Assembly (NCBI GenBank): GCA_964540445.1
Contig: CAZIMF010000001.1
Location: 1-56,899, forward strand
Direction of reading: 5' to 3'
DNA from: an uncultured Candidatus Saccharibacteria bacterium
GTDB lineage: Bacteria; Patescibacteriota; Saccharimonadia; Saccharimonadales; 2-12-FULL-41-12
DNA: 56,899 nucleotides
In this document: positions 3,561-56,899 of the stretch, piece after piece
Layout: every line of letters begins with the position of its first letter
Numbering within the stretch: position 1 is the stretch's first letter
Notes under the pieces: generated by a model
What the model saw: the letters and a program-made list of their open reading frames with translations, nothing else
The model's database searches: none
Told to the model about the DNA's origin: nothing
Position numbers and translations under genes: made by a program

Positions 3561-4516
3561 CATCCATAAGCCCTGAGGAAGAAAAAAAGCAACTACTGTA
3601 TCGTGATGCACGCCGGACTGGCGAGTATGACGACATATGGCAAAGTGTTGGCAAATGCGTCTTTTGTGACTTACGTGATAAATATATTTTTCATGAAGAA
3701 AATGGCATTGTTATGACCGTGAGTTTGTATGCCTACATTGATGGTCAGTTCATGATCATCCCGCGACGTCATATTCGTTCTGTTAAAGAGTTGACCGAAC
3801 TAGAGTGGGAAACCGTACGAAAATTTATGTACATTGCAAAAAAAATTATTAGGGAAGTCCATGCCATAAAAGGCACTCAATTTTTAATTCGTGATGGCGG
3901 TATCCAGGCGCAAAGTACAGTCGATCAGCATCTACACATTCAATGTATTCCATTTGATGCGCCTGATTTGTCAGTTTGGAATTATCGTCAGCTTAAGCAC
4001 ACGCCGCTAGAAAACGCCGATTTATACAAAAAGCTTGAACCAAAAATTATTAAGCATAGTAAAAAATTTACACAAAAATATAAAAACCAAACAGTACTAC
4101 CAGTACACTCTGACGCCATTATTACTAATGCGGCAAACGAGGTTCTTTTTATAGAAAGAAGCCAGGCAACCAGACTTGAGCAAAATTATATTACGCAACC
4201 CGGAGGTCGGGTAGATACTATTGCCACAAGCTTGGAGGAAGAATTATGTCGTGAAGTAGAAGAAGAAGTAGGCCTAAAAATCAAACCTGCTGACTTAAGT
4301 TTAGTCAATTCACAGATCGATCACGTGACTTATGCCGGCACACCTCCCATCGCCTTTCTTCGAAATTCATACATAGTGAATAATCTAAGCTTAAACATTA
4401 TTCTTACACCTGGTGAAGAATGTAATAAAATTCTATGGGTACCGGTACAGAAAATTCCAACTCACCCAAACATTTCCCCAGAGACCAAAACAATAATACT
4501 GAAAGTGTTAGGTTAA
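3557..4516 (+). CDS. HIT-superfamily nucleotide transferase/hydrolase domain fused to a Nudix hydrolase domain
   Basis: The N-half has CVFCD...IIPRRH...DQHLHIQCIP (HxHxQ variant of the histidine triad). The C-half has a Nudix box GGRVDTIATSLEEELCREVEEEVGL. ATGA overlap with the upstream gene. Confidence 0.8.
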   Translation: MTSISPEEEKKQLLYRDARRTGEYDDIWQSVGKCVFCDLRDKYIFHEENGIVMTVSLYAYIDGQFMIIPRRHIRSVKELTELEWETVRKFMYIAKKIIREVHAIKGTQFLIRDGGIQAQSTVDQHLHIQCIPFDAPDLSVWNYRQLKHTPLENADLYKKLEPKIIKHSKKFTQKYKNQTVLPVHSDAIITNAANEVLFIERSQATRLEQNYITQPGGRVDTIATSLEEELCREVEEEVGLKIKPADLSLVNSQIDHVTYAGTPPIAFLRNSYIVNNLSLNIILTPGEECNKILWVPVQKIPTHPNISPETKTIILKVLG

Positions 4517-9172: not shown

Positions 9173-9201
9173 TTAACAAATCAGCTAGCACATGGTATAC
9201 T
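9173..9201 (+). promoter_or_regulatory. Sigma70-type promoter for rplJL (TTAACA-17 nt-TATACT with TG extension)
   Basis: ttaacaaatcagctagcacatggtatact; back-to-back with the minus-strand promoter. Confidence 0.6.
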
Positions 9202-9207
9202 AATTAT

Positions 9208-9373
9208 TAGTTACCGAAGACAGTAGCGATGAGTCAAGTCAAAAGGCTTAATCATTTAAGAATGCTACCGAGGAAATGCATATTTTGTATTTTATAGTCT
9301 TTGGTTACGAACCAGAGACTTTTTTAATGGTCGATGTAAGTCATCTGGATAAAAGTAATCAAAAGGTACCAAA
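9208..9373 (+). promoter_or_regulatory. rplJ 5' leader (candidate L10 autoregulatory leader)
   Basis: 165-nt UTR with helix GUAGC (9223-9227)/GCUAC (9264-9268) flanked by CCGAAGACA and CGAGG, plus an internal terminator-like hairpin. Confidence 0.5.
9296..9325 (+). terminator. Attenuator hairpin in the rplJ leader
   Basis: agtctttgg-ttacgaa-ccagagact followed by ttttt, about 50 nt upstream of the rplJ ATG. Confidence 0.6.
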
Positions 9374-23876: not shown

Positions 23877-23951
23877 TGGGGCGTCGCCAAGTGGTAAGGC
23901 ACCAGTTTTTGGTACTGGCATTCGGGGGTTCGAATCCCTCCGCCCCAGCCA
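23877..23951 (+). tRNA. tRNA-Gln (anticodon UUG), CCA encoded
   Basis: TGGGGCGTCGCCAAGTGGTAAGGCACCAGTTTTTGGTACTGGCATTCGGGGGTTCGAATCCCTCCGCCCCAGCCA; cloverleaf folds, close to E. coli tRNA-Gln. Confidence 0.95.
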
Positions 23952-55766: not shown

Positions 55767-56225
55767 ATGAAGAACAATAAATCTCAGGTTAAGCGAATCA
55801 CCAATAAGCGCGCCAAATTTGATTACGATTTAGGCGATTCTATTGTGGCCGGCCTGGTTTTGACAGGGGCAGAAACAAAAGCTCTTCGATTAGGCCACGG
55901 TCACTTGCGCGGAGCGTACGTGGTCGTAAAAGGCGATGAGCTTTATTTATTAAATGCTACTATTACCGGTTTTAACGGGGTAACACTCGAGGAATCCGAA
56001 CAAACACGCAGCCGCAAGCTCCTTCTTAAACGCCGCGAAATCAATGATTTAGTGGCAGCAAAAAAACAAGGTAAAAGTATTATTCCGACCGAACTCCTTA
56101 CTCAGGGACGCTATATTAAGGTACGCATTTCAAGTGGTACTGGCCGCAAGCATTACGACAAGCGTGAAGTAATTAAAAAACGCGACCAAGACCGGGCAAA
56201 CCAGCAGGAGCTTAAAAGCCGCTAA
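55767..56225 (+). CDS. smpB: SsrA-binding protein SmpB
   Basis: NKRAKFDYDL, GAETKALR, SRKLLLKRREI, basic tail. Confidence 0.93.
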   Translation: MKNNKSQVKRITNKRAKFDYDLGDSIVAGLVLTGAETKALRLGHGHLRGAYVVVKGDELYLLNATITGFNGVTLEESEQTRSRKLLLKRREINDLVAAKKQGKSIIPTELLTQGRYIKVRISSGTGRKHYDKREVIKKRDQDRANQQELKSR

Positions 56226-56296
56226 GAATTTAATTAAAATTTAATATTTAGTGTGTAACATAAAGTTATGAGTACTCGCGCTAAAAAGATAGTCGT

Positions 56297-56617
56297 GTGT
56301 ATGCTGACAGAAAAGACTACCTAGTAGTTGCTGTTTTAAAACGAAGACGTGCTGTAAAATTAAAAGCTATTCAATATTTGGGCGGTTTCTGTAAATTATG
56401 TGGCTACAATAAGCATCCTGGTGTTCTAGACTTTCACCATATTGATCCTACGTCAAAGTTATTTGGGATAAGCAGCGGGGGACTTTCAAGATCATGGGAT
56501 AAAATCCAAAAAGAGCTAGATAAATGCATATTACTATGCGCAAACTGCCATAGAGAAGTAGAGCTTAGTGTAAGCAAGCTCCCATTGAGTGTTTACAGAA
56601 GTGATAGTAATAGTTAG
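56297..56617 (+). CDS. Small HNH endonuclease
   Basis: YLGGFCKLCGY...LDFHHIDP...KCILLCANCHREVE (CxxC...HH...CxxCH zinc/HNH core); GTG start. Confidence 0.8.
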   Translation: MYADRKDYLVVAVLKRRRAVKLKAIQYLGGFCKLCGYNKHPGVLDFHHIDPTSKLFGISSGGLSRSWDKIQKELDKCILLCANCHREVELSVSKLPLSVYRSDSNS

Positions 56618-56640: not shown

Positions 56641-56674
56641 TCCGGGGTAGCTCAGCGGTAGAGCGGGTGGCTGT
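56641..56674 (+). tRNA. 5' exon of an intron-containing tRNA (anticodon GU-, most like tRNA-Asn GUU)
   Basis: TCCGGGG-TA-GCTC-AGCGGTA-GAGC-G-GGTGG-CTGT parallels E. coli tRNA-Asn TCCTCTGTAGTTCAGTCGGTAGAACGGCGGACTGT. No anticodon-stem 3' strand follows within the window. Confidence 0.7.
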
Positions 56675-56899
56675 GAATACGCAGCTCTCGATGGCAACAT
56701 CGGGATGAAAATAGGGTGAATTGCGGGGAGCCTACGTGTGCAGTGCATATGGTAATCCGCAGCCAAGCCAAGGCTAGGTTAAAAGGCCTTGGAAGGTTCA
56801 GAGACTAGAGAGTGAGCCTAACAATAATCTCTCGGACAGCGCCCTACATCCCATGCGGATGATGATATAGTCCACGCCATTATGAAAATAATGAATACG
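56675..56899 (+). ncRNA. Group I intron in the tRNA anticodon loop; 3' end at or beyond the window edge
   Basis: P1 GCUGU/GCAGC with a U.G pair at the splice site. P2 cgatg-GCAA-catcg. P aattgcgggg (56719-28), Q aatccgcagc (56754-63), R gttcagagacta (56806-17), S gatatagtcc (56864-73). P3 tagggtg/cgcccta, P6 ccaaggc/gccttgg, P7 gacta/tagtc, P8 catcc/ggatg, P9 cattat-GAAA-ataatg. Confidence 0.9.

What the first reader, a model, noticed from the sequence alone, without database searches (positions are those of the whole stretch)
56641..56899. tRNA (probably Asn-GUU) interrupted by a group I intron in the anticodon loop
The tRNA 5' half reads cleanly up to C32-U33-G34-U35 and is then replaced by a sequence carrying every hallmark of a group I ribozyme. 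P1 pairs the exon end GCUGU with GCAGC, with the diagnostic U.G at the splice site. The four classic conserved elements are present: P (AAUUGCGGGG), Q (AAUCCGCAGC), R (GUUCAGAGACUA) and S (GAUAUAGUCC). Complementary P3, P4, P6, P7 and P8 strands are readable, along with GNRA-capped P2 and P9 hairpins. The bacterial tRNA group I introns I know of sit in Leu(UAA), fMet, Arg(CCU) and Ile(CAU) genes. An intron after position 35 of a GUN tRNA in a CPR-like genome does not match any of those. The octamer tgaatacg occurs both at the 5' splice site (56673-80) and at the very end of the window (56892-99). The intron may therefore be only about 225 nt long and end exactly at the window edge.
Basis: partly seen in the sequence, partly recalled or inferred. 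Interest (0 to 1): 0.72.

Follow-up and report, generated by a model that had tools for sequence, protein, structure and literature searches.

The report
Self-splicing intron in tRNA-Asn gene
The window ends in an asparagine tRNA gene split by a self-splicing group I intron, a class already catalogued in 2020 and common in uncultured bacteria; an HNH nuclease gene just upstream belongs to a family that travels with this intron.

Summary
Bases 56641-56674 are the 5' half of a tRNA, ending C32-U33-G34-U35. From 56675 to the window end runs a complete group I ribozyme core (Rfam RF00028: 78.3 bits, gathering score 50, E=3e-18).

The 3' exon lies off the window. Eight relatives with the identical 34-nt 5' exon continue with omega-G, then U36-A-A and the rest of tRNA-Asn(GUU). 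Covariation of the P9.0 helix indicates the window stops 2 nt before the 3' splice site.

The novelty claim does not hold. Williams (bioRxiv 2020) already lists an "Asn.4Ug" class. One capped scan found at least 120 species genomes, carrying about 20 different phylum- or class-level labels, with this intron at this site.

The fold is well supported on 58 homologues: 96% of cells pair, against 33-40% in slid controls, and 46 of 66 pairs show compensatory changes.

An added result concerns the small HNH ORF 24 nt upstream (56297-56617). Its family sits inside the P1 loop of this same intron in most sampled metagenomic relatives. In Saccharibacteria it lies free-standing beside the split gene, and in phage tRNA arrays beside intron-less tRNA-Asn genes. 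It is most likely the intron's homing endonuclease acting in trans, and here it may be decaying.

Verdict: an ordinary member of a known kind, with a modestly new mobility story.

The parts
56641..56674 (+). 5' exon of tRNA-Asn(GUU), positions 1-35: acceptor strand TCCGGGG, D arm, anticodon-stem strand GGTGG, then C32 U33 G34 U35
   Evidence: Sequence. The 34-nt exon is identical in L132, L151, L173, L193 and L244-L247, where it is joined to a tRNA-Asn 3' exon. The spliced construct is called tRNA-Asn(gtt) by ARAGORN.
56675..56899 (+). Group I intron without an ORF. 225 nt lie in the window; it is predicted to continue with U and G(omega) just beyond the edge.
   Evidence: RF00028 at 78.3 bits, E=3e-18, full model. 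77-87% identical to complete introns in relatives. Fold supported by covariation.
56670..56685 (+). P1: exon GCUGU plus intron G56675, paired with C56680 and GCAGC (56681-85, the internal guide sequence). The loop is AAUA. U56674.G56681 marks the 5' splice site.
   Evidence: The U.G pair is invariant in 58 of 58 homologues, and the +1 pair covaries (30 changes on both sides).
56688..56703 (+). P2 hairpin with GCAA tetraloop
   Evidence: All 6 pairs show compensatory changes.
56712..56718 (+). P3 5' strand UAGGGUG, which pairs with 56840-56846 (CGCCCUA)
   Evidence: 99.5% of cells paired, and 2 pairs covary.
56723..56760 (+). P4 (56723-27 with 56756-60) enclosing P5
56762..56797 (+). P6 and P6a (56762-64 with 56795-97; 56768-73 with 56787-92)
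   Evidence: all 6 P6a pairs covary.
56803..56807 (+). P7 5' strand GACUA, which pairs with UAGUC at 56868-56872 (guanosine-binding helix, pseudoknotted with P3)
   Evidence: Invariant in 58 of 58 sequences and always complementary. With no variation, there is no covariation evidence either way.
56808..56833 (+). Extra hairpin between P7 and the P3 3' strand (P7.1-like): GAGAG/CUCUC stem with loop UGAGCCUAACAAUAAU
   Evidence: All 5 pairs show compensatory changes. The same element is present in Williams' Asn.4Ug, Phe.2Ug and Lys.2Ug seed sequences. A few homologues lack it.
56840..56846 (+). P3 3' strand CGCCCUA
56847..56861 (+). P8 hairpin (CAUCC / GGAUG)
56868..56872 (+). P7 3' strand UAGUC
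56874..56899 (+). P9.0 5' strand A56874-C56875; P9 hairpin 56878-83 with 56888-93 and a GAAA loop; 3' tail AAUACG. G56899 is predicted to be the first base of the P9.0 3' strand (G-U, then omega-G off the window).
   Evidence: In relatives P9.0 columns 313-314 covary with columns 341-342 (34 and 9 changes on both sides). Relatives end ..ACGUG|UAAC or ..AAGUG|UAAC.
56297..56617 (+). Small HNH endonuclease ORF (106 aa counted from GTG), 24 nt upstream of the tRNA. Proposed free-standing homing endonuclease gene of the tRNA-Asn intron.
   Evidence: Pfam HNH 22.2 bits against a cutoff of 21.4. PHROG 2255, HNH endonuclease, 7e-30. All Cys4/His/Asn motif residues are conserved. Homologues are tied to tRNA-Asn genes and introns.
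56269..56296 (+). Likely original start of the HNH gene (ATG, MSTRA..), now out of frame. A 1-nt deficit in the A5 run at 56284-56288 separates it from the HNH body.
   Evidence: With one more A the N-terminus would read MSTRAKKDSRVYADR, matching relatives (MSTARKDNRKYADR).

Best explanation

How it should work. The gene is transcribed as a precursor. The intron folds into helices P1-P9 plus one extra P7.1-like hairpin. The guide sequence GCAGC pairs with the exon end GCUGU. An external guanosine attacks after the U.G wobble pair. Omega-G, held in place by the 2-bp P9.0 helix, then occupies the same pocket, and the exons, already held together by the anticodon stem, are ligated into a normal tRNA-Asn.

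Status of the steps. The fold, the 5' splice site and the tRNA identity are shown by sequence, covariance model and covariation. The 3' splice site and 3' exon of this particular genome are inferred from relatives. Catalysis is inferred from family membership.

Class. This is a member of the previously catalogued Asn.4Ug class, which is widespread in uncultured bacteria.

The HNH gene. The HNH gene 24 nt upstream is most likely the intron's cognate homing endonuclease sitting outside the intron. It would cut intron-less tRNA-Asn alleles. Repair from this locus would then copy the intron and the nuclease gene together (trans or collaborative homing). In this genome the nuclease gene may already be decaying through a frameshift at its start.
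For: Intron and splice site:
- RF00028 full-length hit at 78.3 bits, E=3e-18.

Distribution and tRNA identity:
- At least 120 GTDB species genomes carry the same tRNA/P1/P3 pattern.
- In 85 of 85 resolved loci the layout is omega-G followed by U36-A-A and a complementary stem.
- The identical 5' exon in L132, L151, L173, L193 and L244-247 is joined to a tRNA-Asn 3' exon.
- The spliced product is called tRNA-Asn(gtt).

Fold:
- On 58 homologues, 96.1% of cells pair against 33-40% for slid partners.
- 46 of 66 pairs show compensatory change, and 0 of 500 shuffles reach the observed values.
- P9.0 and the anticodon stem both covary.

Prior description: Asn.4Ug is in Williams 2020.

HNH link:
- Four of four homologues, chosen only by similarity and contig length, flank an intron-bearing tRNA-Asn.
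- 66 of 80 metagenomic homologue loci contain the intron.
- ARAGORN labelling puts 50 of those homologues inside a tRNA-Asn intron, plus 3 more inside split genes called Thr, His or Tyr.
- A separate test found about 61 ORFs abutting the ribozyme core, with the ORF running over the guide sequence into the ribozyme.
- 5 of the 80 sit upstream of a split tRNA gene (4 truly free-standing, L259/L260/L268/L305; L285 proved on inspection to be an in-intron copy followed by a second split tRNA-Asn gene) and 4 sit next to intron-less tRNA-Asn.
- In viral contigs 78 of 80 homologues lie within 400 nt of a tRNA gene, and the nearest tRNA is Asn in 36.
- Relatives L132 and L151 have smpB directly followed by tRNA-Asn with no HNH, so the HNH gene is an insertion in the window's lineage.

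Framework for trans and collaborative homing: PMC3984707 and PMC2790892.
Against: - The window itself contains no 3' exon and no omega-G, so a truncated or rearranged gene in this genome cannot be excluded.
- The source contig could not be extended: the exact 25-mer is absent from the metagenome collection, and four window proteins are not on record.
- No splicing or transcription data exist.
- The HNH specificity is untested.
- The window's copy has lost its ATG frame.
- Only 7 of 120 intron loci found from the intron side carry an HNH homologue in the DNA held, so most of these introns persist without it.
- Some family members sit beside intron-less tRNA-Asn or beside other tRNAs. The nuclease may therefore target tRNA-gene neighbourhoods in general rather than the intron insertion site.
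Confidence: 0.85

Rival explanations
1. The locus is a dead remnant: a tRNA 5' half plus an intron whose 3' exon has been lost or displaced, for example by an element integrated at the tRNA. On this view it makes no functional tRNA.
For: - The window stops before the 3' exon.
- In Saccharibacteria relatives the tRNA-Asn 3' end is a strain-variable integration point with serine recombinase genes.
- The neighbouring HNH gene carries a frameshift.
Against: - Every helix of the ribozyme and the whole 5' exon are intact and match functional-looking relatives position by position.
- The stop falls only 2 nt before the predicted splice site, which looks like a contig or window end rather than a deletion.
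- In relatives the variable DNA begins after the tRNA 3' end, not inside the gene.
Confidence: 0.05
2. The interrupted gene is another GUN tRNA (His, Asp or Tyr), or tRNA-Thr(UGU) with the intron two bases further 5', rather than tRNA-Asn.
For: - The third anticodon base is off the window.
- ARAGORN with intron search labels many homologues Thr(tgt), and a few Tyr, His or Asp.
- Williams' set contains Asp.4Ug, Tyr.4Ug and a 'Thr.2Ug'.
Against: - The Thr call is a phasing ambiguity, because these introns end in UG.
- The P1 U.G pair (invariant) and omega-G fix the junction at CUGU|UAA in 85 of 85 resolved loci.
- Relatives with the identical 5' exon all give GUU.
- The spliced sequence is called Asn.
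Confidence: 0.03
3. The HNH ORF is an unrelated neighbour: a generic McrA-like nuclease, or a free-standing selfish gene that homes to its own intergenic site beside tRNA genes. On this view it plays no part in the intron's mobility.
For: - Source annotations call homologues McrA or 'HNH restriction endonuclease'.
- In phages many homologues sit next to tRNAs other than Asn (44 of 80) and next to intron-less tRNA-Asn.
- Most intron copies lack it.
Against: - The same protein family is embedded in the P1 loop of this very intron in about 50-60 of 80 sampled loci, with its 3' end overlapping the guide sequence.
- Free-standing copies are interleaved with intronic ones in a rough neighbour-joining tree, at distances of 0.13-0.19.
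- Four of four unbiased picks flank the split gene in different genomic contexts.
Confidence: 0.25

Closest known systems
Asn.4Ug class of bacterial tRNA group I introns (Williams KP, bioRxiv 2020, doi 10.1101/2020.01.27.920355; seed sequence Pam37.Asn.4Ug)
   Same: - Same host gene and same insertion point (after the 4th anticodon-loop base, U35), with U-1 and omega-G.
- Shares the extra hairpin between P7 and P3' with its ..CCUAAC(C)AAUAA.. loop.
- Shares the stretch ACAGCGCCCnACAUCC..GGAUGAUGAnAUAGUCCAC.
   Different: - Pam37 has a different guide sequence (UGUA/UGUA), a second hairpin after P2 and a longer P6.
- The window's intron is a Saccharibacteria-type variant, 77-87% identical only to other Saccharibacteria copies.
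- The preprint does not analyse intron ORFs or neighbouring genes.
Classical IC3 tRNA introns: Anabaena/chloroplast tRNA-Leu(UAA), Azoarcus tRNA-Ile(CAU), Agrobacterium tRNA-Arg(CCU), cyanobacterial tRNA-fMet
   Same: [quoted passage not shown]
- P1 is formed with anticodon-loop bases.
- The exons are held together by the anticodon stem.
- They are small and mostly lack ORFs.
   Different: - Different tRNA and different position in the loop.
- The window's intron carries a P7.1-like hairpin between P7 and P3', which the IC3 seed sequences in Williams' alignment lack.
- Its core motif set (AGAGACUA ... AGCGCCC ... GAnAUAGUCC) is very common in viral contigs: at least 120 hits in a capped scan.
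- This suggests affinity with phage-type (IA-like) introns. That subgroup assignment is my inference and was not tested against a reference classification.
Synechocystis tRNA-fMet intron encoding I-Ssp6803I (Bonocora & Shub 2001, cited in PMC3984707)
   Same: [quoted passage not shown]
   Different: - That enzyme is not an HNH protein (from my own knowledge, not checked here) and is encoded inside the intron.
- Here the nuclease is an HNH protein and, in the window, lies outside the intron.
[quoted passage not shown]
   Same: [quoted passage not shown]
- The proposed outcome is co-conversion of intron and nuclease gene into intron-less alleles.
   Different: - Those cases are in phage protein-coding genes and were tested experimentally.
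- Here the host is a bacterial tRNA gene and nothing has been tested.
- Here the same nuclease family is also found inside the intron (P1 loop) in other lineages, so both states exist side by side.
Free-standing homing endonucleases in phage tRNA gene clusters (T4 SegB; PMC13096335, PMC2988022)
   Same: Nuclease genes embedded among phage tRNA genes. 78 of 80 viral homologues of the window's HNH lie within 400 nt of a tRNA gene.
   Different: - SegB is a GIY-YIG enzyme (from my own knowledge).
- The family here is HNH, prefers tRNA-Asn neighbours and is also intron-borne.

Membership tests
Group I intron (Rfam RF00028) | Covariance-model score above the curated gathering threshold over the catalytic core | tested here: met
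   78.3 bits against a gathering score of 50, model positions 1-253, E=3e-18
Group I intron (Rfam RF00028) | P1 helix between the 5' exon end and an internal guide sequence, with a U.G wobble at the 5' splice site | tested here: met
   GCUGU (56670-74) pairs with GCAGC (56681-85). The U.G pair is invariant in 58 of 58 homologues and the neighbouring pair covaries.
Group I intron (Rfam RF00028) | Conserved core helices P3-P8, including the P3/P7 pseudoknot | tested here: met
   All helices are present in the window. P2, P3, P4, P5, P6, P8 and P9 covary across 58 sequences. P7 is invariant but always complementary.
Group I intron (Rfam RF00028) | Omega-G as the last intron base | tested here: inconclusive
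   Off the window. Present in 85 of 85 resolved homologues. P9.0 covariation predicts U-G(omega) right after G56899.
Group I intron (Rfam RF00028) | Guanosine-dependent self-splicing | not testable with these tools
   Needs in vitro transcription and splicing, or RNA-seq
Asn.4Ug tRNA intron class (Williams 2020) | Host gene is tRNA-Asn(GUU) | tested here: met
   The 5' exon is identical to that of 8 relatives with complete tRNA-Asn genes. The spliced construct is called Asn(gtt). The window's own 3' exon was not seen.
Asn.4Ug tRNA intron class (Williams 2020) | Intron after the 4th anticodon-loop base (between positions 35 and 36), with U at -1 | tested here: met
   C32 U33 G34 U35, then the intron, as fixed by P1
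IC3 subgroup (classical bacterial tRNA introns) | Core architecture without extra helices between P7 and the P3 3' strand | tested here: not met
   A covarying 5-bp hairpin lies at 56808-56833 between P7 and P3'. The IC3 seed sequences in Williams' alignment have nothing there. No formal subgroup classifier was run.
HNH endonuclease (Pfam PF01844) | Profile match above the curated cutoff | tested here: met
   22.2 bits against a cutoff of 21.4. PHROG 2255, 'HNH endonuclease', 7e-30. No NCBIfam match.
HNH endonuclease (Pfam PF01844) | Catalytic His...Asn...His together with CxxC...CxxC zinc ligands | tested here: met
   C32, C35, H47, H48, C81, N83, C84 and H85 are invariant in 29 aligned homologues and present in the window protein
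Homing endonuclease acting with a group I intron (intron-encoded or trans/collaborative) | The gene lies inside the intron, or directly beside the intron-bearing gene, in unrelated genomic contexts | tested here: met
   Of 80 metagenomic homologues, 50 lie inside a tRNA-Asn intron, plus 3 in split genes called Thr, His or Tyr. Five of the 80 lie upstream of a split tRNA gene (one of them, L285, is really an in-intron copy), and so do the 7 contig places of three separately looked-up Saccharibacteria homologues; a fourth looked-up homologue (L248/L249) lies convergent. Upstream genes differ between loci (smpB, a LexA-like gene, Bro-N, an unknown gene).
Homing endonuclease acting with a group I intron (intron-encoded or trans/collaborative) | Presence/absence polymorphism among close relatives | tested here: met
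   smpB is directly followed by the split tRNA-Asn, without HNH, in L132, L151, L173 and L193. The window has smpB-HNH-tRNA.
Homing endonuclease acting with a group I intron (intron-encoded or trans/collaborative) | Cleaves the intron-less allele at or near the intron insertion site, while the intron-containing allele is immune | not testable with these tools
   Needs purified protein and cleavage mapping

The most novel reading that the evidence does not exclude
A single family of small HNH proteins may be the dedicated homing endonuclease of tRNA-Asn genes across phages and many bacterial phyla, occurring in three states.
1. Inside the P1 loop of the tRNA-Asn group I intron, with its last codons encoded by the ribozyme's guide sequence, P2 and sometimes P3-P5.
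2. Free-standing directly beside an ORF-less copy of the same intron, as in this window.
3. Free-standing beside intron-less tRNA-Asn genes in phage tRNA arrays.

Free-standing and intronic copies are interleaved in a rough tree, which suggests repeated moves in and out of the intron. That would be a natural series of intermediates for the 'endonuclease invades an ORF-less intron / collaborative homing' model of how mobile introns arise. I found no description of it in the literature I could search.
Probability: 0.5. Interest if true: 0.6.

Novelty: new member of a known kind. Interest (0 to 1): 0.38.

Why it matters
As flagged, the finding matters little. It is one more copy of a catalogued and very widespread tRNA-Asn intron.

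It is useful mainly as an annotation lesson. Standard tRNA finders miss or mis-phase these genes: ARAGORN misses this one, and it calls many homologues tRNA-Thr. Genomes such as this one may therefore wrongly appear to lack tRNA-Asn.

The HNH association is the part worth following. It offers many natural examples of the same nuclease family inside, beside and without the intron at one fixed target. That makes the origin and decay cycle of mobile group I introns testable by comparative and biochemical work in a bacterial tRNA gene.

Tried and rejected
1. Extending the contig. None of these attempts worked, so the window's own 3' exon was never seen.
- The look-up of encoding contigs returned 'not on record' for four window proteins.
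- The exact 25-mer from the window's 3' end is absent from metagenome contigs.

2. The repeated octamer TGAATACG as a functional element or an intron boundary. It is not enriched (4 copies against 1.85 expected) and is not conserved in relatives. Rejected as coincidence.

3. A remnant 5' exon upstream of the free-standing HNH gene, which would show that the ORF was left behind by an exon duplication. No match was found in the window or in L241, L243, L244, L259, L260, L268 or L305. L285 turned out to be two tandem split genes.

4. An integrated element as the reason the contig stops at the 3' exon. In relatives the variable DNA starts after the tRNA 3' end, not at the start of the 3' exon, so this does not explain the break.

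5. Similarity to annotated phage introns. Only partial core matches were found, 17-45% of the query. They are uninformative beyond showing a shared core.

6. PDB sequence search for the HNH family. It gave only weak hits, to a group II intron maturase En domain (E=0.0013) and to McrA.

7. A first broad core pattern, tried on viral contigs, was far too general: at least 120 hits.
Full report
1. WHAT IS IN THE SEQUENCE

The tRNA half. Bases 56641-56674 read TCCGGGGTAGCTCAGCGGTAGAGCGGGTGGCTGT. This is a clean tRNA 5' half: a 7-nt acceptor strand, a D arm (GCTC/GAGC), the 5' strand of the anticodon stem (GGTGG), and then C32-U33-G34-U35.

The intron. From 56675 onward the tRNA pattern is replaced by a group I ribozyme.
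- Rfam's Intron_gpI model (RF00028) matches 56665-56894 on the + strand over its full length.
- The score is 78.3 bits against a gathering score of 50, with E=3e-18 for the whole 57-kb window.
- The result is the same when only the last 500 bases are searched.
- ARAGORN finds only an unrelated tRNA-Gln in the window, because the 3' exon lies beyond the window end.

All are present at, or within one base of, the stated places.
- P1 is GCUGU (56670-74) with GCAGC (56681-85), with the U56674.G56681 wobble.
- The P, Q, R and S blocks are present.
- P2 has a GCAA loop and P9 has a GAAA loop.
- The octamer TGAATACG is at 56674-81 and 56892-99. It is not enriched in the window and is not conserved in relatives, so I treat it as coincidence.

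2. RELATIVES, THE MISSING 3' EXON AND THE tRNA'S IDENTITY

Attempts to extend the source contig failed.

I then scanned one genome per GTDB species for a degenerate pattern. The pattern combined the end of the D arm, CUGU, a short P1 loop, GCAG and the P3 block GGGUGAAUU.
- The hits carry about 20 different phylum- or class-level labels.
- These include Saccharibacteria and other Patescibacteria, Nitrospira, Binatia, delta- and gammaproteobacteria, Planctomycetes, Bacteroidota/Ignavibacteriota, Acidobacteriota, Chloroflexota, Actinomycetota, Omnitrophota and WOR-3.

A strict script then resolved complete split genes. It required omega-G, a fully complementary anticodon stem, a T arm and a complementary acceptor strand.
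- It resolved 85 of the 120 loci.
- In all 85 the 3' exon starts U36-A37-A38, giving anticodon GUU.
- The introns are 192-465 nt long.

The nearest relatives are Saccharibacteria/Saccharimonadales MAGs.
- They are 77-87% identical over tRNA plus intron.
- Eight of them (L132, L151, L173, L193, L244-L247) have exactly the window's 34-nt 5' exon.
- They continue after the intron with TAACCACTAGGTCGCTGGTTCGAATCCAGTCCCCGGAGCCA.
- Joining the window's 5' exon to that 3' exon gives a cloverleaf that ARAGORN calls tRNA-Asn(gtt).

ARAGORN's intron mode labels many homologues tRNA-Thr(tgt). This is a phasing artefact. The introns end in UG, so CU|GU...UG|UAA can also be read as CU + UGUAA. The invariant U.G pair in P1 and omega-G fix the true junction.

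3. THE FOLD

I aligned 58 non-redundant ORF-less tRNA-Asn introns, including the window, with the anticodon-stem strands attached (A3).
- RNAalifold recovers the anticodon stem and P1, P2, P3, P4, P5, P6, P8 and P9.
- 38 of its 54 pairs show compensatory changes.

I added three elements by hand: the P7 pseudoknot, a hairpin between P7 and the P3 3' strand, and P9.0. Pair counts on this full structure gave the following.
- 96.1% of cells pair, against 33-40% when partners are slid by 1-3 columns.
- 46 of 66 pairs show a change on both sides.
- The covariation score is 0.626, against 0.07-0.10 for the slid controls.
- 0 of 500 shuffles reach the observed values.

P9.0 is informative for the window edge. 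The two bases after GUCC (AC in the window, 56874-75) covary with the two bases just before omega-G. The window's last base, G56899, would therefore pair with C56875. A U and then omega-G should follow. The intron is thus about 227 nt long and runs 2 nt past the window, not exactly to its edge. Relatives end ...ACGUG|UAAC or ...AAGUG|UAAC.

The extra hairpin (56808-56833) covaries. It is shared with the Asn.4Ug, Phe.2Ug and Lys.2Ug seed sequences in the Williams alignment, and it is absent from the classical IC3 tRNA introns there. The core motif set is also very common in viral contigs, with at least 120 hits in a capped scan. I therefore suspect a phage-type (IA-like) affinity, but I did not run a formal subgroup classification.

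4. WHAT IS ALREADY KNOWN

- Williams (bioRxiv 2020) mapped 5292 intron-split tRNA genes and raised the number of settings to 21.
- His seed alignment includes Pam37.Asn.4Ug, with the same tRNA, the same position, U-1 and omega-G, along with Asp.4Ug and Tyr.4Ug.
- Together with my own scan, this shows the intron is a member of a known and widespread class. It is not an unprecedented placement.

5. THE NEIGHBOURING HNH GENE

The gene itself.
- Between smpB (55767-56225) and the tRNA lies a 106-aa ORF (56297-56617), ending 24 nt before the tRNA.
- It passes the Pfam HNH cutoff and matches PHROG HNH endonuclease families at 7e-30.
- All of its Cys4/His/Asn motif residues are conserved.
- In the closest HNH-less relatives, smpB is followed directly by the split tRNA-Asn. 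The ORF is therefore an insertion in the window's lineage.

Evidence from the protein side.
- The family has at least 805 members.
- Four homologues, picked only for similarity and long contigs, all flank an intron-bearing tRNA-Asn.
- Their genomic contexts differ. Three lie upstream on the same strand and one is convergent.

A search with an alignment of the family returned 80 metagenomic loci.
- 66 of them contain the intron.
- In most, the ORF lies inside the intron, in the P1 loop. The order is 5' exon ...CUGU | 3-50 nt | HNH ORF | guide sequence GCAGC | P2 ... core | omega-G | UAACC.
- The ORF's stop lies mostly 10-60 nt past the guide-sequence G in about 50 of the 61 in-intron loci, and up to about 230 nt past it in the rest. 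It therefore falls inside P2, P3 or P4/P5, or occasionally deeper in the core.
- ARAGORN-based labels: 50 inside a tRNA-Asn intron, plus 3 inside split genes that ARAGORN called Thr, His or Tyr.
- A further 5 are labelled upstream of a split tRNA gene (4 truly free-standing; L285 proved to be an in-intron copy followed by a second split gene), 1 is downstream, 4 sit beside intron-less tRNA-Asn and 1 beside another tRNA. The remaining 16 are unresolved, mostly on truncated contigs.

In viral contigs, 78 of 80 homologues lie within 400 nt of a tRNA gene. The nearest tRNA is tRNA-Asn in 36 of them, nearly always intron-less.

In a rough neighbour-joining tree the Saccharibacteria free-standing copies, including the window's, cluster together. 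Other free-standing copies are scattered among intronic ones at small distances. No relic of a 5' exon lies upstream of the free-standing genes.

The window's copy has its likely original ATG (56269, MSTRA...) out of frame with the HNH body. The cause is a 1-nt deficit in an A5 run at 56284-88. This could be early decay of the gene or an assembly error. GTG at 56297 remains a possible start.

6. HOW IT MOST LIKELY WORKS

Shown here:
- the group I fold;
- the 5' splice site;
- the tRNA-Asn identity (through relatives);
- the tight genomic coupling of the HNH family to this gene and this intron.

Inferred:
- guanosine-initiated self-splicing that yields a normal tRNA-Asn, with the anticodon stem holding the exons together;
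- mobility by homing.

For mobility, the most economical reading uses the framework of collaborative/trans homing and free-standing endonucleases (PMC3984707; T4 mobE, PMC2790892).
- The HNH enzyme cuts intron-less tRNA-Asn genes near the anticodon loop.
- The intron-bearing allele is immune because the site is split.
- Repair then co-converts the intron together with the adjacent nuclease gene, which lies only about 60 bp from the insertion site.

An alternative is that the nuclease homes to tRNA-gene neighbourhoods independently of the intron. This is not excluded, given the copies beside intron-less genes and beside other tRNAs.

7. VERDICT

- The structural interpretation is right.
- The novelty claim is not.
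- The intron is a new member of a known kind.

The HNH association was not part of the original finding. I could not find it described in the literature, and it is the only aspect with some novelty. It rests on genomic association alone.

Noticed in passing
window 56269-56300: The HNH gene's probable original start (ATG 56269, MSTRA..) is out of frame with the HNH body. One extra A in the A5 run at 56284-56288 would restore MSTRAKKDSRVYADR.., which matches relatives. This is either a decaying homing-endonuclease gene or a homopolymer assembly error.
   Followed up: partly
L250-L329 (e.g. L282:1931-2565, L310:945-1577): In intron-internal copies the HNH ORF sits in the P1 loop. Its stop codon lies mostly 10-60 nt past the guide-sequence G and up to about 230 nt past it in about ten loci. 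The last codons are therefore encoded by the guide sequence, P2 and sometimes P3-P5 of the ribozyme, and the conserved ..QLP.. tail coincides with GCAGCUUCC.
   Followed up: partly
L242, L245, L247 versus L243, L244, L246 (about 3675-3751): Sister contigs diverge immediately after the tRNA-Asn 3' end (..GGAGCCAAGAT|). One of each pair carries a serine recombinase gene there, so tRNA-Asn is an integration hot spot in Saccharibacteria relatives.
   Followed up: partly
L243:3444-3495, L145, L285: Some tRNA-Asn introns carry an extra hairpin-forming insertion of about 50 nt between GAAUU (J3/4) and the P4 strand, at the same position in unrelated hosts.
   Followed up: no
L121-L329; Williams seed alignment: ARAGORN's intron mode mis-phases many of these genes as tRNA-Thr(tgt) because the intron ends in UG. 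The seed sequence 'Pgr210.Thr.2Ug' in the 2020 preprint has P1 CUGUC/GGCAG. By the U.G rule that is also a splice after CUGU, so it may be the same mis-assignment.
   Followed up: no
L330-L409 (IMG/VR contigs): Homologues of the HNH protein are embedded in phage tRNA gene arrays. 78 of 80 lie within 400 nt of a tRNA gene, and the nearest is tRNA-Asn(GUU) in 36, usually with the HNH gene directly upstream.
   Followed up: partly
L064 (IMGVR_UViG_3300032782_000001, 436 kb): A very large 'viral' contig carries a match to the window's tRNA 5' half plus intron (68% identity) and two HNH homologues. It could be a jumbo phage or a misclassified CPR genome.
   Followed up: no
window 9196-9334 and 23877-23951: Other RNA features in the window: a ribosomal protein L10 leader (RF00557, 61.1 bits) and tRNA-Gln(UUG).
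   Followed up: no
L285:140-1222: Two tandem tRNA-Asn genes, both split at the same site. The first carries the HNH ORF in its intron and the second has an ORF-less intron.
   Followed up: no
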